NCBI GenBank assembly: GCA_035291665.1
Contig: DATDRP010000001.1
Coordinates: 2,569-66,568, forward strand
DNA length: 64,000 nt
Source of the DNA: Patescibacteria group bacterium
Lineage (GTDB): Bacteria; Patescibacteriota; Microgenomatia; UBA8517
Direction: 5' to 3'
Both the position numbers and the translations under genes were made by a program. Below the pieces are notes generated by a model. The model searched no databases, was not told the DNA's origin, and saw nothing but the letters and a program-made list of their open reading frames with translations. Positions 1-9,956 of the stretch are shown piece after piece. The stretch's first letter is position 1, and each line of letters opens with the position of its first letter.

Positions 1-19
1 GCCCGGACTTCAGATTCAA

Positions 20-556
20 TTGGCCAATTCTGCAGGCCTCCGGAGGCGTCTGGATAAAATTGAAGACTTACAGGTTGTGAACGCCGAGCACGGCGTAAGA
101 ATCGCTCAGGCGTTGTTTGCAGAGAGGTTTGCCGACAGAGTAAAAGTCGACGAAGGAATAAAATCAGTGAATGTTTGGGAGTTGGTTAAAATAGTTTCAA
201 AAGATAAAAAACTGGTTGAAGCGCCTGCGAAAATTGACACCGGAGCCTGGAGAACTTCAATTGACTATGATATGGCTGAAAGTCTGGGACTTATTTACCC
301 CGAAAATATCATTGCCAGTAAAAGTGTCCGGAGCACTCACGGGAGGTCGAAAAGAAAGTGGATCAACTTGTCTTTTTATCTTGCGGGAAGGAAGATAAAA
401 ACTACAGCGAGTCTTGCCAACCGAAAGCAGATGAGAGTGAAACTTATCATCGGACGAAGGGATATCGGAAGCTTTCTCGTAAAATTTAACGAATCGGAAG
501 TAGCCGGACACGATTGGTATAAATCATTATGGACAAAGACCAAGCACTCAAATTAA
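20..556 (+). CDS. retropepsin-like aspartyl protease of the ATP-grasp/RimK-associated 'putative ATP-dependent Zn protease' family; 5' end may lie outside the window (TTG at 20, frame open back to position 2)
   Basis: Motif PAKIDTGAWRTSIDYD carries the D-T-G-A active-site signature typical of the PF05618/COG4067-like family. The 3' end overlaps the downstream ATP-grasp gene by 28 nt, suggesting translational coupling. Confidence 0.55.
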   Translation: MANSAGLRRRLDKIEDLQVVNAEHGVRIAQALFAERFADRVKVDEGIKSVNVWELVKIVSKDKKLVEAPAKIDTGAWRTSIDYDMAESLGLIYPENIIASKSVRSTHGRSKRKWINLSFYLAGRKIKTTASLANRKQMRVKLIIGRRDIGSFLVKFNESEVAGHDWYKSLWTKTKHSN

Positions 557-2823
557 CCCGAGGCATAACCTCAGACATTATAGGCATTGCTCCAAATGCA
601 TTTTCGAGGGTGGTCGCATCTGAGTATTTCCCGAATTTTTCGATAATTTGCTTCAAAAATCGGGGTGAGACCGACTACATTGCCAAAGACATTGAAGTTT
701 TATGCATTGAAAAAGAATATCCCAGGGAAGGGATTGAAAAAACAAATGCACGGGAAATTCTACGCATCCCTCAGGTTCAGGATTATATTTCAAAAAAGAA
801 AGACCCCCGGCTGCTTTTATACAAACCAACAAAAGGGGTAGAGGCAATCGCTGATGAAAAAAATTGGAAATTGTTGGCTAACTCCTGGACGGTTAAGTAC
901 GAAATAGAAAATAAACTTGCTTTCAGGGAAGTTTTGAAAAAAGCAGGGATTGAAGCTATTACCGGCGAAACTGTTTTGTATGATCAGCTTGACGAAAATT
1001 TATTTGTTAAGATGCTGGACAGATACGGACCGAAGATAGTTTTTCAAATAGCGGAAATGACGGCCGGAGGCGGGACCGGAACTGCATTTTTGGAAAATTT
1101 AAGTGATTTTAGAAAATTCAAAGAGAAGTTCGATATGAAAAAAGACCAGTTTACGGCCATAGAAAATGTAAACGTAACCAAATTTAAGGAAGGAGTTCCA
1201 AGCAGTATAGCTGCTTGCGCCACCAAGCATGGAGTTCTTGTGGGCAGGATTCAATCACAAGTTCTTGATATCCCGGATGTGCGGATTCTTTCCGAAGGCT
1301 CAGGGCTTTTTTGCGGACACGATTTTTCATACGGAAGTTTTGGAAGCGATCTTCAGGAACAGGCAAAAACGATTGCGAAAAAGTTTGGTATGTATATTTA
1401 TAACACCATGGGCTACAAAGGAATTTTCGGTATCGATCTGATCACAAACCCTGAAGAGGGGAAAGTTTATCCGATAGAGTGCAACCCGCGCTTTACGGAT
1501 GCTTTCCCTGTTTTATCGGAAATGTACAGCAAAAACGGAATTGTCCCGATGGATGTTTTCCACATTTTGGAGCATTTGGGTGTTGAGTACGATCTTGATG
1601 TCTCAAAGATGAATGACTTATACGATAAAAGCGTAAATGTCGGATCGCAAATCCTTCTGGAGACAAAGACTGACGATTGGACAAAGGTTGAACGCGATAT
1701 GAAAGCAGGAGTATGGAATTTCGACGGATCCGAGATCAAATTTGTGAAGGAAGGATACCGTTTTGAACATCTTGAAAACCAAAATCAATTTTTGTTGACG
1801 GAAGGGGTTCCTTTCAAAGGAAGTATTTATAAACCCGGTGCAAGAATTTTACGGGTAGTTTTTGCGCGGTCGATTTTGGAGAAAGCAAAGGAACTTAAGG
1901 GGGATATCAAATTATTGATCGAAAATATCTATGAAAAGATTGATCTTCAAAAAACCGAACCGGCTGTCGTTATACAGGATTTTCTCGGTTTGAAGATGTG
2001 TAGCATTACTGATCCGCAATATTTATCTGAAGCGGGAAAGATGGGAGCTGATGTTGTGGATCTCATTGGTACAGACGAAAGATTCGGATATGTCCGTCCG
2101 AAAAAGGTCCGTTGGTGGGTGGTTTTTAGCGATAAAATAAAAGATCCTATTGATCTCATTAAATCAAAAAGACTAAGAAAACACCTGAATAATTGGCTAA
2201 ATAATCTTTCAAAGTATGACCTGCGATATGAGATAAAACAAAATATAACGCAGGAAGAATTTACTCAATGGTATGATAAGTTTTTAACAATTTTGTCTTC
2301 CAAAGAAAAGGCAAACATTCGGATTACGAAGAGTTGGCTGAAAGAGAAAAAAATTAAAGCTAAAAAAACGGGTGCAGTTTTCATTTATAAGGGGAATACT
2401 CTTTTGGGGGGGAACCTTTTTATTTATGGGGAAGAAAGTTTATTAGTCGGATTTGGTGCTGTAGAAAAAACCGATACACCCAAGTGGAGTTTGGGAGCAA
2501 TCGTAGATTTCATTTGTGTTAAGCACGCGATGGAAACGGGGATGAAAAAGGTGAGTTTTGGCATCGACACAAATTTATACGGACACCATCTGTCAACCGG
2601 ACTTTTGACTTATAAACTTAATTTCGGACTGACTCCAACCTACAAAGAAACGGCCGATTTAATTTCCACAAAATTTATGAATATGAACAAATTTGAAGAT
2701 TATATTTGCTTCTTGGGAATAAAGGATGGGAAGATTGTCTTTTATTTGATAAAAACTAATGATAAGTCCGAACCCGAAAAACCGATATTAAATACAAACC
2801 TTGAAGTAATAGAAATTGTATAA
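529..2823 (+). CDS. fusion protein: N-terminal ATP-grasp amidoligase (~500 aa) plus C-terminal FemAB/GNAT-fold peptide-ligase-like domain (~260 aa)
   Basis: ATP-grasp hallmarks: GPKIVFQIAEMTAGGGTGTAF, and IFGIDLITNPEEGKVYPIECNPRF (the E-x-N-P-R tail of the ATP-grasp fold). The C-terminal part (KTGAVFIYKGNTLLGGNLFIYGEES..GAIVDFICVKHAMETGMKKVSFGIDTN) follows the FemX/FemAB pattern (..YYGAS..W.AI.WAKE.G.K.YDFGG). Confidence 0.55.
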   Translation: MDKDQALKLTRGITSDIIGIAPNAFSRVVASEYFPNFSIICFKNRGETDYIAKDIEVLCIEKEYPREGIEKTNAREILRIPQVQDYISKKKDPRLLLYKPTKGVEAIADEKNWKLLANSWTVKYEIENKLAFREVLKKAGIEAITGETVLYDQLDENLFVKMLDRYGPKIVFQIAEMTAGGGTGTAFLENLSDFRKFKEKFDMKKDQFTAIENVNVTKFKEGVPSSIAACATKHGVLVGRIQSQVLDIPDVRILSEGSGLFCGHDFSYGSFGSDLQEQAKTIAKKFGMYIYNTMGYKGIFGIDLITNPEEGKVYPIECNPRFTDAFPVLSEMYSKNGIVPMDVFHILEHLGVEYDLDVSKMNDLYDKSVNVGSQILLETKTDDWTKVERDMKAGVWNFDGSEIKFVKEGYRFEHLENQNQFLLTEGVPFKGSIYKPGARILRVVFARSILEKAKELKGDIKLLIENIYEKIDLQKTEPAVVIQDFLGLKMCSITDPQYLSEAGKMGADVVDLIGTDERFGYVRPKKVRWWVVFSDKIKDPIDLIKSKRLRKHLNNWLNNLSKYDLRYEIKQNITQEEFTQWYDKFLTILSSKEKANIRITKSWLKEKKIKAKKTGAVFIYKGNTLLGGNLFIYGEESLLVGFGAVEKTDTPKWSLGAIVDFICVKHAMETGMKKVSFGIDTNLYGHHLSTGLLTYKLNFGLTPTYKETADLISTKFMNMNKFEDYICFLGIKDGKIVFYLIKTNDKSEPEKPILNTNLEVIEIV

Positions 2824-2832
2824 TTTATAACA

Positions 2833-3915
2833 ATGGAAGATGTTTCACCCGAGAGATGGTTAAAAATAAGAAGAGCTGCCGACACGTCTAAAAGATTAGG
2901 GATTAATGATAGAGCGGTACGAAGAGAAGCGGTAATTGATGCAAATTCAGCCAGAAGAAAAGGAATCCTTTCGGATTTGGATGATGATGCTATAGCCCAA
3001 ATTGGTTCAGTTGCTGAAGAAAATATTCGCGACGAACCGAAAGATGTTAGGGAAAGGGCATATAATAAGTATCTTGAGATTACAGTAGGTGAAAGTAATT
3101 TACCCGTGATGGTTGATGCACCCCATTCAATTAAACCTAACAAATCACTTGTCAATGTATTGTTGGAAGAATCCGGTACGGATTCTTCAGATGTCCAGGT
3201 AATTGCTGATAAAATTGCATCAGATAATATCGAAAGTTACACCGGGACTATTGCAATAAAAATTGCAGAAAAACTCCAGATCTCAACCCTGCTTCCGAAA
3301 AAATCAAGAGTCCATGCCGATATAAACCGCCACTGGTTTAACCGCGATGAAAAAAAGTATCCCTCGGGGGAGGGTGACATTACGACGAAAAATTTCGAAT
3401 ACCCCAGAAGCGCAAAAGCGGCTCTTTACTGGGGAATAGATAAGATTTTATCGATGAAAAGATTGCTTGACGATAAGGGAAAATTAAGAAATCCATATTG
3501 CAGATTGTCGATTCACGGTATGAAGGATAATGGGGAGTTTGATTTTGCTGTTGCCGGAGCTGGAAATGCCGCTGATGGAGGTTTAGTTTCTTGGTTTAAT
3601 GATAGATTAAACCAAGAAATTCAAGAAATTGGACTGAATATTGATGGGGAAAATCCAAAATCTGTAATAGCCGAAAGAGGTGATCCAAAAACCGCACTTT
3701 ATTCAGGTGTTGGTAGTTTGTCCAACTTCCGAAAAGATATAAAAGGATCTCAGCATCCTTCATTCGGGGAAAATTTTAATACAATCCAGTTGGAGATTAG
3801 TAAAAGATTAAGAGTTAATAAAGAATATCGGGAAAAAGTCATAAATATTTTGTCGGAAGTATTGAAGGAGACTCCAACTTATTTTACTTCACATAACGCT
3901 CACCCTGAGAATTAA
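2833..3915 (+). CDS. hypothetical protein; possible zinc amidohydrolase of the carboxypeptidase / N-formylglutamate-amidohydrolase-like fold (weak)
   Basis: Begins 10 bp after the ligase gene on the same strand. Motifs RVHADINRHW and CRLSIHGMKDNGEFD loosely resemble the His/Glu and SIH zinc-ligand motifs of M14-like hydrolases. No signal peptide. Confidence 0.35.
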   Translation: MEDVSPERWLKIRRAADTSKRLGINDRAVRREAVIDANSARRKGILSDLDDDAIAQIGSVAEENIRDEPKDVRERAYNKYLEITVGESNLPVMVDAPHSIKPNKSLVNVLLEESGTDSSDVQVIADKIASDNIESYTGTIAIKIAEKLQISTLLPKKSRVHADINRHWFNRDEKKYPSGEGDITTKNFEYPRSAKAALYWGIDKILSMKRLLDDKGKLRNPYCRLSIHGMKDNGEFDFAVAGAGNAADGGLVSWFNDRLNQEIQEIGLNIDGENPKSVIAERGDPKTALYSGVGSLSNFRKDIKGSQHPSFGENFNTIQLEISKRLRVNKEYREKVINILSEVLKETPTYFTSHNAHPEN

Positions 3916-4074: not shown

Positions 4075-4108
4075 CATCAAAAACCCACTCTTTATATTGA
4101 GTGGGTTT
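4075..4108 (-). terminator. rho-independent terminator downstream of rplL
   Basis: 8-bp stem acccactc/gagtgggt with an 8-nt loop. On the minus strand it is followed by a T-rich tract (tttttgatg), 30 nt past the rplL stop. Confidence 0.55.
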
Positions 4109-4646: not shown

Positions 4647-5186
4647 TCAACTCGTGGTACTCGTATTACTCGAGATGCTTTTTGTTTTTAATATGAATAC
4701 TAATTTCTGTAAATTTCCCTGCAATGTTCCCAGAAGCCCGTAAACCGGTGCTTGTATTGCCCCAAGGACGGCAGCCTGTAAGGCTGACTTTCCCGGAAGT
4801 TTTGACAGCGTCAGGAGTGCATTTTTATCCTGGAACAATCCTTCTATGACGCCAACTTTCAGGCTCGGGATTTCAAATTCTTTTGCGAATTTGTCAAGAA
4901 CCTGGAGTGCGGCAATCGGATCCCCTTCAGTGACAACTAATGCAGTTGGACCCTCCAAAACCGTATCAGTGGATATTTCTTTCGGACTTTCAGCTTTATC
5001 TGCAGCCAATTTAAATAAGGTGTTTTTGGAAACAGTCATCGTAGCACCAACTCCGCGTAAACGTTTTTTGAGTTCCTGTTGCTGTTTTACTGCAAGACCT
5101 GTGTAGTCAATAAGGACAACCCCTGTTGCACTTTTTATCGTAGCTGACAGGTTGTCAACGAAATATACTTTCTCTGCTTTTTTCAT
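4647..5186 (-). CDS. rplJ: 50S ribosomal protein L10
   Basis: Sits immediately upstream of rplL on the same strand. The N-terminus (KKAEKVYFVDNLSATIKSATGVVLIDYTGLAV..ELKKRLR) is typical of L10. Confidence 0.85.
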   Translation of the reverse strand: MKKAEKVYFVDNLSATIKSATGVVLIDYTGLAVKQQQELKKRLRGVGATMTVSKNTLFKLAADKAESPKEISTDTVLEGPTALVVTEGDPIAALQVLDKFAKEFEIPSLKVGVIEGLFQDKNALLTLSKLPGKSALQAAVLGAIQAPVYGLLGTLQGNLQKLVFILKTKSISSNTSTTS

Positions 5187-5487: not shown

Positions 5488-5928
5488 ATGGAAAGAAGTA
5501 AATATCAGGATTTACCGATAGATAAAGCTTTTGAAAGGTTAGTTGAAGGTAGTTTTTATTATATTACGGTTATTTATAAACAAAATGGTGCCTATGGGGG
5601 AAAAGTATTATTTCCTGATGATCTCAAAACGGCTGATCACAAAAATTCCAATTTACCCGATAATAGCGTTGCCGAATCCGTTTTTCTAACCTATGTTTCG
5701 GCAAGCTGCGAAGCCGGATTGGAGCTGGCAGAGGAGTTCAGGCGAAATTGGCCTCCGGATGGGGAAGGAAAATTCACTCAAAGAGTAAAAATATTAAATG
5801 AAAAGTTATGCAAACTTGAAGGTATGGGCAACTCTGAACCTACGATTATCCAAATACGCCTGCCAGAGAATAATAAGAGTATCAATGCAAATGATCTATT
5901 AAATAAGATGTTGGGTGAAGTGAAATAA
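5488..5928 (+). CDS. hypothetical protein
   Basis: 146-aa ORF preceded by a strong RBS aaggagga 4 nt upstream of the ATG. Confidence 0.5.
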   Translation: MERSKYQDLPIDKAFERLVEGSFYYITVIYKQNGAYGGKVLFPDDLKTADHKNSNLPDNSVAESVFLTYVSASCEAGLELAEEFRRNWPPDGEGKFTQRVKILNEKLCKLEGMGNSEPTIIQIRLPENNKSINANDLLNKMLGEVK

Positions 5929-5953
5929 AGTTTAAGTGTAAATATTAATTGCT

Positions 5954-6487
5954 TTACAATCTTTTTCCAGATTTTACAGGTAAATTCCACATAGCTGCAT
6001 TTTCAGAGACACTTCTTCCTCCTAAATCTGTTTTTGGTCGTTGCTTTACGATAACAGGTACTGCCTCAGGTTTTCTGGGGTTTGTTGCTAAATCGGTTAA
6101 TTTTTGAAGCGTTTCGTCTGTGATAGGTAATTCTTCGATTGGGAAATTTTGGTCTGGTCCTTGCCCGTCTGAAAGATATCTCGCTTTTTGTTCATCATTC
6201 AGTTCAGTTGCAACAATTGACCCTTCAGGTGCATCGCCTTGTTTTTCGGATCCATAGACGTAAAATGTTTCGACCGGTGGATGTTTACCGTCAATTTTTA
6301 GTGAGTAAACGACCTTTTCCGAAAGAGGATTCTTAAGAATTAAAGGAATTTCAACTCCCTGTAATCTTCTGGTAAGTGGAATAAGTTCACCGTTTTCGGA
6401 ATGCATAAGTTTGAACTCATCAACCTGTGAATTTTCAGGTTTTACTACGATTTCCTGTTCTGTTAATTCCGCAACTGAATCTGCCAT
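5954..6487 (-). CDS. hypothetical protein (last gene of a three-gene minus-strand operon)
   Basis: 177-aa ORF; its start lies 10 bp downstream of the upstream gene stop. Confidence 0.45.
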   Translation of the reverse strand: MADSVAELTEQEIVVKPENSQVDEFKLMHSENGELIPLTRRLQGVEIPLILKNPLSEKVVYSLKIDGKHPPVETFYVYGSEKQGDAPEGSIVATELNDEQKARYLSDGQGPDQNFPIEELPITDETLQKLTDLATNPRKPEAVPVIVKQRPKTDLGGRSVSENAAMWNLPVKSGKRL

Positions 6488-6496
6488 ATTTACGAA

Positions 6497-6805
6497 TTAT
6501 AAACTTTCCAGATATTCCTTGAAATATTTTTCGATTAAAACACCAACAGTATTATCAGAATTAACTAATTTCAGTTGATATAGGACACTTAATAGTTTTT
6601 CGTCAATTTCAGAATTTTTCTCAAATTTTAAGTCTTTCACTAATTTTTCGGAATCTTCAGACAGATTACCTTTGGCCTCAGAAAGAGTAGCTACAATTGC
6701 GAAATATTGAGCCATTCCTAATACATCATTAATTTCTTCCCGATTTACACCTTTTGCTAACTGCTTCGAAGTAAAATTTTCTATAATTGGTTTCAGGTTG
6801 TCCAT
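6497..6805 (-). CDS. hypothetical protein
   Basis: 102-aa acidic ORF, tightly packed between neighbours (3-bp and 10-bp gaps). Confidence 0.45.
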   Translation of the reverse strand: MDNLKPIIENFTSKQLAKGVNREEINDVLGMAQYFAIVATLSEAKGNLSEDSEKLVKDLKFEKNSEIDEKLLSVLYQLKLVNSDNTVGVLIEKYFKEYLESL

Positions 6806-6807
6806 GT

Positions 6808-7320
6808 TTATTTAGTATATTGTTCTAACATTTTACCTGGAATTGTACCAAGTGCTTCTCCAACCACTCCACCCACAACGAAGCCGCCAACTATCCCTTT
6901 CTTCCCATAAACTAATCCGCCAAGAGCACTTAATCCCAATCCTCCGATAAGCGCCCACGGGTGTTCAGACGCAAATTTTTGCAATCCCTGGTCGGATATG
7001 TCGGCTGTATTAATACCAAGAACTCTTGCTCCGTCTGTTCCCGTTATCCCAACCAACATGGGGTCAAGATTTGATGAAGCTAAAACTCCTATCTCAGCTG
7101 TTAATCTAGCGTGAGCAGCCTGACCGAGTCTTGTGAAAAAATCACCTTCCCCTTCGTTTGCCAAATCAAGAGTTTTTTGAATCTCAGTTTTAATTGAGCC
7201 GGTAAGTCCATCAAGCTTACCAATTTTTTCTATAAAAACCTCTTTGGCTCTTGTTCGTAGGTCTCCGGGGGTTTCAACGGTAGTTGTATTTTCAATTAAA
7301 TCCGTATTCACCTCATCCAT
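6808..7320 (-). CDS. hypothetical protein with C-terminal glycine-zipper membrane segment
   Basis: 170-aa ORF. The C-terminus LIGGLGLSALGGLVYGKKGIVGGFVVGGVVGEALG is a Gly-zipper/TM-like segment. Confidence 0.45.
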   Translation of the reverse strand: MDEVNTDLIENTTTVETPGDLRTRAKEVFIEKIGKLDGLTGSIKTEIQKTLDLANEGEGDFFTRLGQAAHARLTAEIGVLASSNLDPMLVGITGTDGARVLGINTADISDQGLQKFASEHPWALIGGLGLSALGGLVYGKKGIVGGFVVGGVVGEALGTIPGKMLEQYTK

Positions 7321-7386
7321 GACAAGATTTTATACATTAAATAGCTTGTTGTAAACCAACATATTCAAATTAATATTTATACGCAT

Positions 7387-7503
7387 TTCAAGAATACCCC
7401 GATTTAATCGGGGATGAATTGAATTAAGAATATAACCTCGTTTAGACGGATCCGAAAGGATACCCCGCCTGAAAGCGACAGCGAGAGGGCGGGGAGGTTT
7501 CAT
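7387..7503. repeat. intergenic double-hairpin repeat, family A (divergent copy)
   Basis: ttcaagaatacc - hairpin ccccgatttaatcgggg - atgaattgaatt .. hairpin ccccgcc..ggcgggg - aggtttcat. Same architecture as the copies at 18088, 21281, 48847 and 61829. Confidence 0.5.
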
Positions 7504-7516
7504 ATATAATAGTTCT

Positions 7517-8437
7517 ATGGAAATAAGTTTGGGGGCATCAAATTTGGAAGGTGTAAAAAATAAAGAAACAGAAACCCTGAAAAATCTTGAGTCGATGGTT
7601 AAGCTGTGGCATGAGAATGCTGATCAGATGTGGGGGAAAGAATCCTTTCATAATTGGCAGCATATAGTTGCTGTGAGGTATGCAAAAGATGAATATCTGA
7701 AAAGTTATCATGAAAAAGGACTGGATCCGCTTCGAGTTTTCGGTGATGAAGGCGAGCTTACCCGATGGAACCAGAGTAAAACCGATGAGGAAAAAATATC
7801 GCCCGAAGAATTTGAGTACGGGTTGGATGCTTCTATCTTACTCCACGACGTAGGTAATGTTCTCACCAGGATAGATGTTAATGAAGAAGGGGAACTAGTT
7901 CCAACATATCATTATCAGGAAAATACAAATCATGCAAATATTGCATCAGATAAGGTTTATATCGCGGCGGGGGCTGAAGACAGAACAAAGGAGATGATTG
8001 AACCGATTTTTACGAAACTGGGAATAGACAAGAAACTGATTCCGATGGCACAGGATTTTGTTGAGAATACCAAATATCAGTTTACCGAGGGCGGGAAAGA
8101 TACACCGTTTGCTGTTTTTATGAGAGTTGTGGATCAGTTAGGCGTAAATTATTTTTCGGAAGATGACAAACGAGTGCTTGGCTTGGCAAATGAAAATAAC
8201 ATCGAATTTCCAGAAAGGAAGTACAACCCGGATTTTGTTGTAAATTTTACGTTAAGAAGGTGTAGAGAATTGGTTCCCAACGATACAGTTCGGGATACAT
8301 TAGTTAATGGTTCCTGGGGGAAACAATACCCAAAAGAATTCCCCGGTCTTGGAACCGGTCCGATTTCGGGAGTTGAAATACGAGACATATTAGTATCAAT
8401 TAATCATCAAAAATCATCCGATGAAAGTAATTTGTAG
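7517..8437 (+). CDS. HD-domain phosphohydrolase-like protein
   Basis: Carries H..H (WQHIVAV) and the HD motif (ILLHDVGN) characteristic of the HD superfamily. Confidence 0.45.
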   Translation: MEISLGASNLEGVKNKETETLKNLESMVKLWHENADQMWGKESFHNWQHIVAVRYAKDEYLKSYHEKGLDPLRVFGDEGELTRWNQSKTDEEKISPEEFEYGLDASILLHDVGNVLTRIDVNEEGELVPTYHYQENTNHANIASDKVYIAAGAEDRTKEMIEPIFTKLGIDKKLIPMAQDFVENTKYQFTEGGKDTPFAVFMRVVDQLGVNYFSEDDKRVLGLANENNIEFPERKYNPDFVVNFTLRRCRELVPNDTVRDTLVNGSWGKQYPKEFPGLGTGPISGVEIRDILVSINHQKSSDESNL

Positions 8438-8483
8438 ATGTTGATTTAGGTCCGGATTCAAGTTAAGATTATATTTGTAAAAA

Positions 8484-9956
8484 ATGAAGAAATTAGTCTC
8501 AGCTATTATCTCTCTCGTATTATTATATTCTTTAGCGGCTTCAACTTATGCTCAGGAAAGTGGTATCCAAATAGATGCAACGGGTTCGGCTCCTGCGGGG
8601 GTCGAAACAGGAAGTGCGGGTGTTGGTACAAAAATGATTGCTCCCGATGCGATTTTCCCTCCTTATAACAACGGTTCATCGCCATTTGGGCAAAAACATG
8701 GTTATACGGTCACATTTCGGGGAAATGGCGATGCTGTTGTTAGTGCCCGGCTTGTTGTTGGGAATCAAAGCGATAAAGATCTGGAAAAGGTTACTTATCG
8801 AATTCCAAGGGTTTCTCCGACTGACATCTATGTCTTCCAGATCATAAAGCAAAAAAGCTGCAATCGATATGACTATCCGGCTTATGATCCTGTCACAAGA
8901 AGATACCCCCAGCAAGTTTGTACCGAATGGGCTGAACCGGATTATTACAACGACTATTCCTATTATCAGGCGAAATACCAAAAAGCTGATTATGAATTTT
9001 CCGGAGATGAATTAAAAATTACTTTTCCCACCCCAATTGAAAGTCAAAAAGCAGGCGCTTTATTTTTGTATTTCCGCTCATCTGGCTATGCGAAGAAGGC
9101 TTCGTTCGGTGCTTATTCATACACTTTTGAATCTCTGAAGGCGATGGACTCAATCATAAGTTTGAGCGTCGGAATCGCTACCGACTCAGATTTATACCTC
9201 AAGGGAGTTGAGGCTAATGTTAACTACAGATTCGAAGATGTCGCTCCGAAGCTAGCCTCGGTTAATTCCGGTTTCGGTGCAGTCGCCATGGAAAATTCAT
9301 CCCTTGATTCCTATGTTTCTTCTATCGGACAAGGATCTATTTACAAAACCGCTTCAAATTTGGCGCCCCTTGAGTCATACCAAGTAGAAGGCTCATATGC
9401 CGACTCACGCGCAAAACTTTATGCCAAAGAAATTATGTGGGTTGGGGGAGGAGTCCTTTTTGTAATAGTTCTTATCTTACTTCTTGTCCGATTGGTAATT
9501 AAGGTGTTCTCGCACAACGTTCGCGGCGAGGTAAAAAATGACGATAACGAAAAGTCAGGTAAAGAAGGCAACGGACAAATGATGCTTCTTGCGTTGGGAG
9601 TTGGTTTTGTTGCATCTTTCTTAACGCTTGCCTATACGGTGGGAATGTTTATTGCCGGGTCTCTCATGAGCCAAGCTTTGGGGTATTCTTTCCAGTCGGC
9701 GGTTATTGTTTTCTTTATAATTATGTCACTTATGGTGTATCCCTTGCTTTTATTCGTACCGGGCATATTAATCGGTGCAAAAAAGAAAAGCATCGGTTGG
9801 GGAGTTGCTGTGGTGGGGTCAACCTTCGGCTGGGTATTTCTATTGGGGATAGTACTTTTTGTCGTATTTTATTTTTTTCGATCAAGTGGAAATATAGGGA
9901 TTTACGATATGGTGTTGGGTAAATCGGCTCCCATGGGAAGTCCGATGATGGAGTAA
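8484..9956 (+). CDS. secreted/membrane protein (N-terminal signal peptide, C-terminal multi-TM region)
   Basis: Signal peptide MKKLVSAIISLVLLYSLAASTYAQ. The C-terminal third holds about four hydrophobic helices. Confidence 0.5.
   Translation: MKKLVSAIISLVLLYSLAASTYAQESGIQIDATGSAPAGVETGSAGVGTKMIAPDAIFPPYNNGSSPFGQKHGYTVTFRGNGDAVVSARLVVGNQSDKDLEKVTYRIPRVSPTDIYVFQIIKQKSCNRYDYPAYDPVTRRYPQQVCTEWAEPDYYNDYSYYQAKYQKADYEFSGDELKITFPTPIESQKAGALFLYFRSSGYAKKASFGAYSYTFESLKAMDSIISLSVGIATDSDLYLKGVEANVNYRFEDVAPKLASVNSGFGAVAMENSSLDSYVSSIGQGSIYKTASNLAPLESYQVEGSYADSRAKLYAKEIMWVGGGVLFVIVLILLLVRLVIKVFSHNVRGEVKNDDNEKSGKEGNGQMMLLALGVGFVASFLTLAYTVGMFIAGSLMSQALGYSFQSAVIVFFIIMSLMVYPLLLFVPGILIGAKKKSIGWGVAVVGSTFGWVFLLGIVLFVVFYFFRSSGNIGIYDMVLGKSAPMGSPMME

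What the first reader, a model, noticed from the sequence alone, without database searches (positions are those of the whole stretch)
1..3915. Candidate peptide-ligase system: retropepsin-like protease + ATP-grasp/FemAB-fold fusion ligase + putative amidohydrolase
Three co-directional genes are tightly coupled (a 28-nt overlap, then a 10-nt gap). Gene 1 carries the AKIDTGA signature of the retropepsin-like protease family described (Iyer, Abhiman, Burroughs & Aravind, Mol Biosyst 2009) as a partner of RimK-type ATP-grasp ligases. Gene 2 fuses two unrelated amidoligase chemistries in one 764-aa chain. One is an ATP-grasp domain (GGGTGTAF loop, E-C-N-P-R tail). The other is a C-terminal GNAT-fold domain with the FemX/FemAB pattern, and that family normally uses aminoacyl-tRNA as donor. 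I am not aware of a described enzyme combining these two domains. Known relatives act in peptidoglycan cross-bridge synthesis (ATP-grasp D-Asp ligase Aslfm; tRNA-dependent FemABX) or in peptide tagging and cyanophycin-like polymer synthesis. A fused enzyme could therefore add two successive residues to a cell-wall precursor, or build and later trim (via the protease and the gene-3 hydrolase) a peptide tag or storage polymer. Gene 3 (360 aa) has weak HADxNR / SIHGM motifs reminiscent of carboxypeptidase/FGase-fold zinc amidohydrolases, which are also recurrent ATP-grasp neighbours.
Basis: partly seen in the sequence, partly recalled or inferred. Interest (0 to 1): 0.8.

Follow-up and report, generated by a model that had tools for sequence, protein, structure and literature searches.

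The report
Expanded Rlo/RimK-type peptide-ligase operon
A conserved operon of an uncultured Patescibacteria bacterium joins three peptide-bond-forming domains, two peptide-cleaving enzymes and a membrane protein; it is an undescribed, enlarged relative of the Pseudomonas RloABC/RimBK polyglutamate systems, and its product is unknown.

Summary
Gene 1 carries a retropepsin domain whose best solved relatives are the RloA crystal structures. Gene 2 is an ATP-grasp ligase fused to a GNAT-fold domain whose closest structures are all aminoacyl-tRNA-dependent transferases (FemX, Sbb17, MprF). Gene 3 has the N-formylglutamate-amidohydrolase / poly-gamma-glutamate-hydrolase fold.

The unit is mis-delimited, though. 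The window start cuts gene 1. The whole gene (469 aa) is a RimK-related ATP-grasp (RloC-like) fused to the retropepsin, and an RloB-like 7TM membrane-protein gene lies upstream.

In every related locus that extends far enough (about 14), the 7TM gene, the ATP-grasp-peptidase gene and the gene-2-type ATP-grasp are kept in that order. The FemX-like domain and gene 3 are swappable modules. The FemX-like domain can be absent, split off, or replaced by MATCAP. Gene 3 alternates with a Peptidase_C26-like protein, and GNAT acetyltransferases and extra RimK-like ligases come and go.

Best reading: a membrane-associated system that builds and trims a short, probably glutamate-rich, non-ribosomal peptide or peptide tail. 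The acceptor and product are unknown. It is a new variant of a known kind, and the ATP-grasp/FemX-like fusion is unannotated in Pfam and absent from the literature I could search.

The parts
1..556 (+). 3' end (last 185 codons) of a 469-aa gene cut by the window start. The full protein is a RimK-related ATP-grasp ligase (RloC-like, PF14397 ATPgrasp_ST / TIGR02291) fused to a C-terminal retropepsin-like protease.
   Evidence: The frame is open to base 2. The full gene is on the window's own contig, L001 7947-9356. Pfam ATPgrasp_ST E 2.1e-60 and RimK 1e-10. TIGR02291 rimK_rel_E_lig E 1.2e-72, 244 bits, below the 314-bit cutoff.
209..553 (+). Retropepsin-like (RloA/RimB-type, PF05618) aspartic protease domain. 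The catalytic D-T-G-A is at nt 236-247 and the IIGRRD motif lies near the C-terminus. The domain is strongly basic.
   Evidence: PF05618 scores 26.7 bits against a cutoff of 27. A domain profile hits RloA structures 9G59/9G58 at E 1.1e-7 and 8.2e-6, then 2pma, Ddi1 and ApRick. DTGA and IIGRxD are conserved in 15 of 16 homologs. K+R is about twice D+E.
529..1935 (+). Gene 2, residues 1-469: a second ATP-grasp carboxylate-amine ligase (PRK06524-like, specificity unknown). It is the third core component of the system.
   Evidence: ATP-grasp_3 scores 25.1 bits against a cutoff of 23.2. NF005096 E 7.2e-39 over residues 68-469. The glycine loop GGG(T/S)GT and E317-C-N319-P-R321 are invariant in 24 homologs. 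It always follows the 7TM gene and the ATPgrasp_ST gene.
1936..2823 (+). Gene 2, residues 470-764: a FemX/MprF/Sbb17-like GNAT-fold domain, a putative aminoacyl-tRNA-dependent aminoacyl transferase. The well-modelled core is nt 2104-2643. It belongs to a family with no Pfam model.
2833..3915 (+). Gene 3: a metal-dependent amidohydrolase of the N-formylglutamate amidohydrolase / poly-gamma-glutamate hydrolase (PghP, YndL) fold, with a family-specific N-terminal helical extension of about 80 aa. It is an accessory module of the system.
4081..4108 (.). A 10-bp GC-containing hairpin between the convergent gene 3 and rplL. It is a likely terminator marking the 3' end of the operon.
   Evidence: Consensus scan only.

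Best explanation
The locus is the 3' two-and-a-half genes of a four-gene operon of a Patescibacteria (Microgenomates/Woesebacteria-like) bacterium.

Gene order:
- an RloB-like 7TM membrane protein
- a RimK-related ATP-grasp fused to an RloA/RimB-type retropepsin
- a second ATP-grasp fused to a FemX-like GNAT-fold transferase
- an FGase/PghP-like amidohydrolase

I read it as a membrane-associated, non-ribosomal machine that builds and trims peptide chains, homologous to Pseudomonas RloABC and RimBK.

Inferred steps:
1. The RimK-related ligase extends a free carboxylate with alpha-linked amino acids, most likely glutamate, through an acyl-phosphate intermediate.
2. The second ATP-grasp adds a different residue, or makes the priming bond.
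3. The fused FemX-like domain acylates a free amino group of the same intermediate, using an aminoacyl-tRNA as donor. The chain can then grow or be capped at both ends.
4. The basic, fused retropepsin cuts the acidic chain internally, as RimB and RloA do with polyglutamate. The FGase/PghP-like enzyme removes a terminal or N-acyl/gamma-linked glutamyl unit. Together they set chain length or recycle the product.
5. The 7TM protein anchors the complex, or passes the product to the envelope.

Shown here: domain identities, conserved catalytic motifs, and conserved gene order with modular replacement. Inferred: substrate identity (glutamate-rich), aa-tRNA use, order of reactions, and the role of the 7TM protein.
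For: Homology to Rlo/Rim:
- The upstream protein matches PF14402 at E 2.7e-23 and the 7TM part of the NCBIfam RloB model at E 5.6e-16.
- The gene-1 ATP-grasp matches ATPgrasp_ST at E 2e-60 and TIGR02291 'alpha-L-glutamate ligase-like' at E 1e-72. RimK is its best solved relative.
- The retropepsin profile hits the RloA structures.
- RimB and RloA cleave polyglutamate, RimK makes it, and deleting rloB or rloC suppresses the defects of the rloA1-3 triple protease mutant (PMC11957791, PMC12239564).
- RimB-RimK hybrid proteins exist.

Conservation:
- The 7TM, ATPgrasp_ST-peptidase and gene-2-type ATP-grasp genes occur in that order in all loci that extend far enough, including distant ones in a different genomic neighbourhood.

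Modular swaps that all point to amide-bond making and breaking:
- The C-terminus of the second ATP-grasp is absent, FemX-like, split into its own gene (L011, L018), or replaced by MATCAP/DUF1704 (P0077).
- Downstream, an FGase-like protein alternates with GATase1/Peptidase_C26-like proteins. GNAT acetyltransferases and extra RimK-like ligases are variably present.
- A distant stand-alone FemX-like protein (P0129) also sits in a locus with 7TM_transglut, ATPgrasp_ST, MATCAP and two RimK-like genes.

The glutamate theme:
- RimK-type ligases are present.
- The nearest structures to gene 3 are N-formylglutamate amidohydrolase and poly-gamma-glutamate hydrolases.
- Its alternates in L011/L018 are class-I glutamine amidotransferase proteins that also match Peptidase_C26, the gamma-glutamyl hydrolase family.
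- The retropepsin domains are strongly basic.

FemX-like fold and invariant residues.
Against: - No acceptor or product was identified.
- No conserved small ORF, acidic-tailed protein or tRNA gene lies nearby.
- Glutamate specificity is extrapolated from distant relatives. TIGR02291 scores below its cutoff, and the gene-2 ATP-grasp has no characterised close relative.
- The FemX-like assignment rests on a medium-confidence model (pLDDT 70, TM about 0.45) and marginal sequence statistics (E 0.0018). Only one GNAT lobe is modelled confidently, whereas Fem enzymes have two.
- aa-tRNA use cannot be read from sequence.
- RloA is secreted and RloB carries an inactive transglutaminase domain. Here the protease is fused to a cytoplasmic ligase and the transglutaminase domain is missing, so the cell biology may differ.
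- The Pseudomonas system itself has no known product.
Confidence: 0.6

Rival explanations
1. Cell-wall reading. The gene-2 protein modifies peptidoglycan precursors. The ATP-grasp half would add a D- or acidic amino acid (like the D-aspartate ligase Aslfm) and the FemX-like half an L-amino acid or glycine from aa-tRNA, to build a cross-bridge on lipid II at the membrane. The hydrolases would remodel stem peptides.
For: FemX enzymes are the best structural matches and act on UDP-MurNAc-pentapeptide or lipid II. A membrane partner is present. Several next-best matches to gene 3 are cell-wall amidases and carboxypeptidases such as Csd4 and MpaA. Pseudomonas rlo mutants have shape and hypo-osmotic defects. 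In L021 and L022 a class A PBP gene lies two genes downstream.
Against: The FemX-like domain is dispensable. Many systems have a 474-511-aa ATP-grasp with no such domain, or MATCAP in its place. The invariant partners are a RimK-type ligase and a polyglutamate-type retropepsin, not mur/fem genes. Sbb17 and MprF match as well as FemX does, so the fold does not specify a peptidoglycan acceptor. No Mur, Ddl or racemase genes are linked.
Confidence: 0.13
2. Ribosomal-protein tail modification. As with RimK on S6, the ligases add residues to the C-terminus of a ribosomal protein and the peptidases remove them. The target could be S6, or the adjacent L7/L12 or L10.
For: RimK and RimB are the best-characterised relatives. 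In Microgenomates the operon always abuts rplL-rplJ.
Against: The orientation is convergent, so there is no shared transcript. Distant members sit elsewhere, between ruvC and tyrS. L7/L12 here ends in ...TVEMK, which is not acidic. A dedicated 7TM protein and the RloB/RloC-type signatures point away from the RimK-S6 system. The P. aeruginosa genetics separated Rlo from Rim function.
Confidence: 0.1
3. The C-terminal domain of gene 2 is not tRNA-dependent. It would be an acyl-CoA-dependent GNAT that N-acylates or caps the ATP-grasp product (as in the GNAT plus ATP-grasp enzyme Ngg of N-acetylglutaminylglutamine amide synthesis, recalled from memory). Alternatively it is a non-catalytic substrate-binding module.
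Against: Both structure-comparison methods rank aa-tRNA-dependent enzymes first, by a clear margin. The only near-significant sequence links are to FemX and Sbb17. The invariant FG-D-N-YG...YK...G motif is not the CoA-binding Q/RxxGxG/A motif. Several systems carry a separate classical Acetyltransf_1 GNAT in addition, which argues that the two have different jobs.
Confidence: 0.17
4. Biosynthesis of a diffusible small peptide metabolite, such as an antibiotic or signal-like aminoacylated compound (as Sbb17 does in streptothricin-type pathways). The 7TM protein would be the exporter and the peptidases would provide self-protection or maturation.
For: Sbb17/Sba18 are the top Foldseek hits. Multiple ligases, a tailoring GNAT and a membrane protein are typical of such clusters.
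Against: The operon keeps a stable chromosomal position next to core ribosomal genes across a whole lineage and shows no variable-island behaviour. No scaffold-forming, PLP-dependent or redox enzymes are linked. Relatives in Pseudomonas affect envelope physiology. There are no PADLOC hits.
Confidence: 0.1

Closest known systems
Pseudomonas RloABC operon (RloA secreted retropepsin, RloB inactive-transglutaminase/7TM protein, RloC ATP-grasp; mBio 2025, PMC12239564)
   Same: The same three protein families are linked in one operon: a 7TM_transglut membrane protein, a RimK-related ATP-grasp, and a PF05618 retropepsin with DTG. The protease has a basic, polyglutamate-type character.
   Different: The protease has no signal peptide and is fused to the C-terminus of the cytoplasmic ligase. 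The membrane protein lacks the inactive transglutaminase domain and has a signal peptide plus a Pro/Thr-rich linker instead. A second ATP-grasp, here fused to a FemX-like domain, and an FGase-like hydrolase are added. The phylum is also different: RloB was reported to be 96% proteobacterial.
RimK-RimB and the RimBK hybrid (J Biol Chem 2025, PMC11957791)
   Same: An ATP-grasp alpha-L-glutamate-ligase relative is physically coupled to a retropepsin that trims what the ligase makes. Fusion of the two has a precedent.
   Different: The domain order is reversed: RimBK has the protease at the N-terminus, whereas here it is at the C-terminus. The ligase belongs to the ATPgrasp_ST/TIGR02291 branch, not RimK proper. 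RimBK has no 7TM partner or further ligases.
Fem-type aa-tRNA-dependent transferases (FemX, MprF/aaPGS, L/F-transferase, ATE1, Sbb17)
   Same: They are the best structural matches to gene-2 residues 470-764. There is a marginal profile match to S. aureus FemX across the strands leading to the conserved FG..N motif.
   Different: No Pfam FemAB hit. Only a single confidently modelled lobe. Fusion to an ATP-grasp ligase. The family is its own unannotated clade of about 500 cluster representatives. tRNA dependence is untested.
N-formylglutamate amidohydrolase (PF05013) and poly-gamma-glutamate hydrolases PghP/YndL
   Different: The window protein has no Pfam hit. It carries a family-specific N-terminal helical extension of about 80 residues and an insert at residues 100-135. 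The family is small, with 11 close homologs found.
Tubulin tyrosine ligase / MATCAP cycle (analogy only)
   Same: An ATP-grasp ligase is paired with a dedicated carboxypeptidase. In one relative (P0077) a MATCAP/DUF1704 domain is fused to the gene-2-type ATP-grasp, and in L023 it is a separate gene.
   Different: The window's own operon has no MATCAP domain. The analogy only suggests addition and removal of residues at a C-terminus.

Membership tests
PF05618 RloA/RimB-type retropepsin-like protease (gene 1, C-terminus) | Significant profile similarity to family members | tested here: met
   A single sequence scores 26.7 bits, just under the Pfam cutoff of 27. A profile of 11 homologs hits the RloA structures 9G59 and 9G58 at E 1.1e-7 and 8.2e-6, and 2pma at 5e-4.
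PF05618 RloA/RimB-type retropepsin-like protease (gene 1, C-terminus) | Catalytic D-T/S-G motif and C-terminal hydrophobic-G-R/x-D motif | tested here: met
   KIDTGA and IIGRxD are conserved in 15 of 16 homologs. The one exception (L023) carries a separate MATCAP peptidase gene.
PF05618 RloA/RimB-type retropepsin-like protease (gene 1, C-terminus) | Retropepsin fold / homodimer | not tested
RloABC system | Operon of a 7TM_transglut membrane protein, a RimK-related ATP-grasp and a retropepsin | tested here: met
   The arrangement is conserved in about 17 loci.
RloABC system | Periplasmic inactive transglutaminase domain on the membrane protein | tested here: not met
   The NCBIfam RloB model matches only over profile positions 312-507 of 508, the 7TM part. 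The N-terminus is a signal peptide plus a Pro/Thr-rich linker.
RloABC system | Secreted, stand-alone protease with a signal peptide | tested here: not met
   The protease domain is fused to the C-terminus of the ATP-grasp.
RimK family alpha-L-glutamate ligase (gene 1, N-terminal part, outside the window) | Score at or above the curated cutoff of TIGR00768 or TIGR02291 | tested here: not met
   TIGR02291 scores 244.5 bits against a cutoff of 314.2. TIGR00768 scores 49.5 against 143.4. It is a relative, not an equivalog, so glutamate specificity is inferred only.
ATP-grasp superfamily (gene 2, residues 1-469) | Pfam ATP-grasp model above cutoff, glycine-rich loop, and Mg-binding E-x-N with catalytic R | tested here: met
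   ATP-grasp_3 scores 25.1 bits against a cutoff of 23.2. GGG(T/S)GT and E317-C-N319-P-R321 are invariant. Weak hits to biotin carboxylase structures.
NCBIfam PRK06524 'biotin carboxylase' equivalog (gene 2) | Score at or above 684 bits | tested here: not met
   133 bits. It is only a distant relative, and nothing suggests carboxylase function.
Fem/MprF/LF-transferase clade of GNAT-fold aa-tRNA-dependent transferases (gene 2, residues 470-764) | Fold closer to this clade than to acetyl-CoA GNATs | tested here: met
Fem/MprF/LF-transferase clade of GNAT-fold aa-tRNA-dependent transferases (gene 2, residues 470-764) | Sequence-profile membership (PF02388 FemAB, PF13480, PF04339) | tested here: inconclusive
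   PF02388 gives no hit. PF13480 scores 11.6-14.2 bits against a cutoff of 22. PF04339 hits 3 of 16 members, best E 8.5e-4. The family profile against S. aureus FemX gives E 0.0018.
Fem/MprF/LF-transferase clade of GNAT-fold aa-tRNA-dependent transferases (gene 2, residues 470-764) | Two tandem GNAT lobes | tested here: inconclusive
   One lobe is well modelled (fragment residues 57-236). The N-terminal 56 residues and the C-terminal strands have low confidence.
Fem/MprF/LF-transferase clade of GNAT-fold aa-tRNA-dependent transferases (gene 2, residues 470-764) | Use of aminoacyl-tRNA as donor | not testable with these tools
   This needs a biochemical assay. The invariant Y/F-K (K696) resembles the Fem F-K motif, but I recall that motif from memory and did not verify the equivalence by alignment.
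FGase (PF05013) / PghP-type zinc amidohydrolases (gene 3) | Fold | tested here: met
FGase (PF05013) / PghP-type zinc amidohydrolases (gene 3) | Pfam PF05013 match | tested here: inconclusive
   The window protein has no hit. Three of 8 homologs hit weakly, best E 0.0014. The family profile reaches the PF05013 protein P0106 at E 2.8e-20. It is a divergent sister family.
FGase (PF05013) / PghP-type zinc amidohydrolases (gene 3) | Metal-ligand and catalytic residues | tested here: inconclusive
   H98, D163 (E in L020), H228 and E321 are invariant. Their spatial equivalence to the ligands of the solved enzymes was not checked.

The most novel reading that the evidence does not exclude
Gene 2 encodes the first enzyme that unites the two non-ribosomal ways of making a peptide bond in one chain: ATP-grasp acyl-phosphate chemistry and Fem-type aminoacyl-tRNA transfer. 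It would work within a membrane-anchored, self-editing system that writes and erases a hybrid peptide tail on a protein or envelope molecule in reduced-genome Patescibacteria. The tail would be partly ATP-built and partly tRNA-built. That would also give the first biochemical handle on what Rlo-type systems make.
Probability: 0.3. Interest if true: 0.75.

Novelty: new variant of a known kind. Interest (0 to 1): 0.6.

Why it matters
[quoted passage not shown] Their product is nevertheless unknown (PMC12239564).

The Patescibacteria version fuses or links more of the pathway, which narrows the chemistry to a short chain that is extended and trimmed:
- ligase fused to protease
- ligase fused to a tRNA-type transferase
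- alternative glutamyl-type hydrolases
- a capping acetyltransferase in some loci

It offers compact constructs for reconstitution. It also exposes a family of about 500 clusters of FemX-like domains that has no Pfam model and is tied to these systems. If tRNA dependence is confirmed, it would add a case of aa-tRNA use outside translation in organisms with minimal metabolism.

Tried and rejected
- A PDB sequence search with the narrow 16-sequence profile of the gene-2 C-terminus found nothing, even at E 10. Only a broader 36-sequence profile reached FemX.
- A PDB sequence search with the gene-3 profile gave only chance hits. The link to FGase came from fold comparison and from a profile search of the large protein database.
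- The AFDB50 fold library was unavailable.
- Iyer et al. 2009 (PMC3268129) is not held, so its description of these contexts could not be checked.
- Literature searches for PF14402/ATPgrasp_ST and for DUF1704 with ATP-grasp found no papers.
- The PADLOC scan found no defence-system match, so I dropped the defence-island reading.
- The nearest tRNA genes are 28 kb or more away. The whole-window Rfam scan found only tRNAs.
- A search of the window for proteins with acidic C-terminal tails, as possible RimK-type acceptors, found nothing convincing.
- The contexts of two further distant FemX-like proteins were uninformative: a 1,713-aa protein (L025) and a 1.3-kb contig (L026).
- I rejected the biotin carboxylase annotation for gene 2: 133 bits against a 684-bit cutoff, with no biotin carrier or carboxyltransferase partners.
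- I rejected a cyanophycin-synthetase-like reading, because there is no Mur-ligase-type domain.

Full report
OBSERVATION

The three ORFs exist as described: 20..556, 529..2823 (764 aa) and 2833..3915 (360 aa), all on the + strand. The gene 1/gene 2 overlap is 28 nt. The gene 2/gene 3 gap is 9 nt, not 10. All quoted motifs are present.

The gene-1 frame is open to window base 2, so gene 1 is incomplete. The gene-2 protein is identical to a database protein from a 'Patescibacteria group bacterium' MAG. Its contig was recovered from three independent assemblies (L001-L003; window position = L001 position - 8800).

On that contig gene 1 is 469 aa, starting 853 nt before the window. It is preceded by a 307-aa gene on the same strand.

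WHAT THE PROTEINS ARE

Upstream gene, outside the window:
- It matches PF14402 7TM_transglut at E 2.7e-23.
- It matches the 7TM part (positions 312-507 of 508) of the NCBIfam model for the Pseudomonas membrane protein RloB at E 5.6e-16.
- It has a signal peptide, a Pro/Thr-rich linker of about 75 aa, and about seven hydrophobic helices. It has no transglutaminase-like domain.

Gene 1, full length:
- Residues 1 to about 310 are a RimK-related ATP-grasp. Hits: PF14397 ATPgrasp_ST at E 2e-60; RimK at 1e-10; TIGR02291 'alpha-L-glutamate ligase-like' at E 1e-72, which is 244 bits against a cutoff of 314. RimK is its best solved relative.
- Residues from about 355 to 469 lie entirely inside the window (nt 209-553). 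They form a retropepsin domain.
- A single sequence scores 26.7 bits against PF05618, whose cutoff is 27.
- A profile of 11 homologous domains hits 9G59 and 9G58 at E 1.1e-7 and 8.2e-6. It then hits 2pma, Ddi1 and ApRick. 9G58 and 9G59 are the RloA crystal structures of PMC12239564.
- KIDTGA and IIGRxD are conserved in 15 of 16 homologs.
- The domain is basic, with K+R about twice D+E. This fits the positively charged, polyglutamate-cleaving channel described for RloA and RimB.

Gene 2, residues 1-469:
- It is an ATP-grasp. Pfam ATP-grasp_3 is above its cutoff, and NCBIfam PRK06524 gives E 7e-39 but only 133 bits against 684.
- The glycine loop and the E-C-N-P-R motif are invariant across 24 homologs.

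Gene 2, residues 470-764:
- They have no significant Pfam hit. Acetyltransf_6 gives E 0.05-0.3, and 3 of 16 homologs hit FemAB_like at about 1e-3.
- An AF2 model has pLDDT 70 overall and above 85 for the core.
- Foldseek independently ranks only aa-tRNA-dependent transferases in its top 15, E 2.5e-8 to 1.4e-5.
- An exhaustive profile search found 504 cluster representatives of this domain. Most are stand-alone proteins of 250-300 aa, and nine of the ten tested had no Pfam hit at all.
- A profile of 36 diverse members has S. aureus FemX as its best PDB hit (E 0.0018), with Sbb17 at 0.044.
- G678, N682, G685 and K696 (gene-2 numbering) are invariant across the family.

Gene 3:
- It has no Pfam hit and only about 11 close homologs.
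- The family profile reaches a PF05013 (FGase) protein at E 2.8e-20.
- H98, D163-x-N-R, H228 and E321 are invariant.

CONTEXT

Twelve loci came from a genome scan. Further loci came from contig look-ups. I compared them by tblastn and ORF mapping.

The core:
- Wherever the contig extends far enough, the order is 7TM_transglut, then the ATPgrasp_ST gene (in all but L023 fused to the retropepsin), then the gene-2-type ATP-grasp.
- This holds down to 32-35% identity for gene 2.
- It also holds in distant loci that sit between ruvC and tyrS and not next to rplL-rplJ (L021, L022).

The C-terminus of the second ATP-grasp is variable:
- absent in proteins of 474-511 aa (L005, L020, L021)
- FemX-like in proteins of 764-800 aa
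- encoded as a separate adjacent gene (L011, L018)
- replaced by a MATCAP/DUF1704 metallopeptidase domain (P0077, L022)

The downstream genes are also variable:
- Gene-3 homologs occur in the window, L004, L005 and L020, and in divergent form in L015.
- GATase1/Peptidase_C26-like proteins take that place in L011 and L018.
- Classical Acetyltransf_1 GNATs occur in L004 and L014-L017.
- Additional RimK-like ligases occur in L005 and L014.

A distant stand-alone FemX-like protein (P0129) lies in a locus with 7TM_transglut, ATPgrasp_ST, MATCAP and two RimK-like genes. There the retropepsin motif has decayed to NTSR.

The core is thus a triad. The FemX-like domain and gene 3 are accessory modules, and every accessory makes or breaks amide bonds.

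MECHANISM

Known relatives:
- RimK polymerises alpha-L-glutamate on ribosomal protein S6 and as free chains.
- RimB stimulates RimK and cleaves polyglutamate, and RimB-RimK hybrids exist (PMC11957791).
- In P. aeruginosa, RloA retropepsins cleave E8 or longer in vitro. Deleting rloB or rloC suppresses the defects of the triple protease mutant. This implies that RloB and RloC make something the proteases must process (PMC12239564).

By homology and context, I infer that the window's operon builds and trims a short non-ribosomal peptide chain, probably rich in glutamate.

Inferred steps:
1. The RimK-related ligase extends a carboxylate end.
2. The second ATP-grasp adds another residue, or makes the priming bond.
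3. The FemX-like domain acylates a free amine from aa-tRNA.
4. The basic retropepsin cuts the acidic chain internally.
5. The FGase/PghP-like enzyme removes a terminal, N-acyl or gamma-glutamyl unit.
6. The 7TM protein anchors the complex or hands the product to the envelope.

Where present, the extra GNAT would cap an amine.

The glutamate theme rests on four points:
- the RimK-type ligases
- the nearest structures to gene 3
- the Peptidase_C26-like alternates
- the basic protease

Shown: domain identities, motif conservation, co-conservation and modular replacement. Inferred: substrate, tRNA use, reaction order and the 7TM role. I put this at about 0.6 overall, and at about 0.4 for glutamate specifically.

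RIVALS

- A peptidoglycan cross-bridge role fits the FemX resemblance and the membrane partner. It does not fit the dispensability of the FemX-like domain, nor the invariant RimK/retropepsin partners.
- A ribosomal-protein tail role fits RimK and the rplL-rplJ neighbourhood. However, that neighbour is convergent and is not conserved outside Microgenomates, and L7/L12 ends in ...VEMK.
- The C-terminal domain could be CoA-dependent. But both fold methods prefer tRNA-dependent enzymes, and separate classical GNATs co-occur.
- A diffusible metabolite cluster is possible. The conserved chromosomal position and the lack of other tailoring enzymes argue against it.
- There is no defence-system signature.

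NOVELTY

The association of 7TM_transglut, ATP-grasp and retropepsin is known. It is encoded in Pfam and NCBIfam family definitions and was studied genetically in 2025.

What appears undescribed:
- the Patescibacteria form, with the protease fused behind the ligase
- the obligatory second ATP-grasp
- the fusion of that ATP-grasp to a FemX-like domain from a family that has no Pfam model
- the FGase-like accessory

Public names for gene-2 homologs are only 'ATP-grasp domain protein' or 'biotin carboxylase-like'. Literature searches found no description, but Iyer et al. 2009 could not be read. I rate it a new variant of a known kind, with interest 0.6.

Noticed in passing
window 5488-9956 (between rplJ at 4647-5186 and rplA, L001 18812-19672): Six ORFs of unknown function interrupt the usually contiguous rplK-rplA-rplJ-rplL cluster (146, 177, 102, 170, 306 and 490 aa, on both strands). 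In relatives L004 and L020, rplA follows rplJ directly. Pfam gives only sub-threshold hits: DUF4271 for the 490-aa membrane protein and a CH domain for the 306-aa protein.
   Followed up: partly
L007 1268-2740: A gene-3 homolog (393 aa) lies outside any ligase operon on this 5-kb contig. It is immediately followed by a 95-aa zf-UBP protein (PF02148, E 2e-14), a domain that in eukaryotes binds free C-terminal tails. P0104 looks like a frameshift fusion of the two. This hints that FGase-like enzymes of this family act on free peptide C-termini.
   Followed up: partly
L022 3443-6118 (P0077) and L023 2959-3924: A MATCAP/DUF1704 metallopeptidase is fused to the gene-2-type ATP-grasp (L022) or encoded beside it (L023). 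This is a bacterial ligase-plus-carboxypeptidase pairing reminiscent of the tubulin TTL/MATCAP cycle.
   Followed up: partly
L025 98-5239 (P0143) and P0152, P0177, P0186, P0193, P0206, P0232, P0243, P0255: Giant proteins of 1,566-2,256 aa contain one copy of the same FemX-like domain (E 1e-17 to 1e-27). The three tested (P0143, P0186, P0232) had no Pfam domain. P0143 sits next to OEP/CusB-type efflux genes, so it probably comes from a Gram-negative bacterium.
   Followed up: no
L001 6462-6797 (-), about 2 kb upstream of the window start: A 111-aa protein with a T4SS_pilin match (PF18895, E 6e-6) lies divergently upstream of the 7TM gene. In L004 and L020 a MerR-type HTH gene occupies the position just upstream of the 7TM gene and could be a regulator.
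   Followed up: no
L009, L011, L012, L014, L018, L019 record titles: Several MAGs carrying this Patescibacteria-type operon next to Patescibacteria-like ribosomal genes are labelled 'uncultured Gammaproteobacteria bacterium' in their public records. This is probably a taxonomic mislabel.
   Followed up: no
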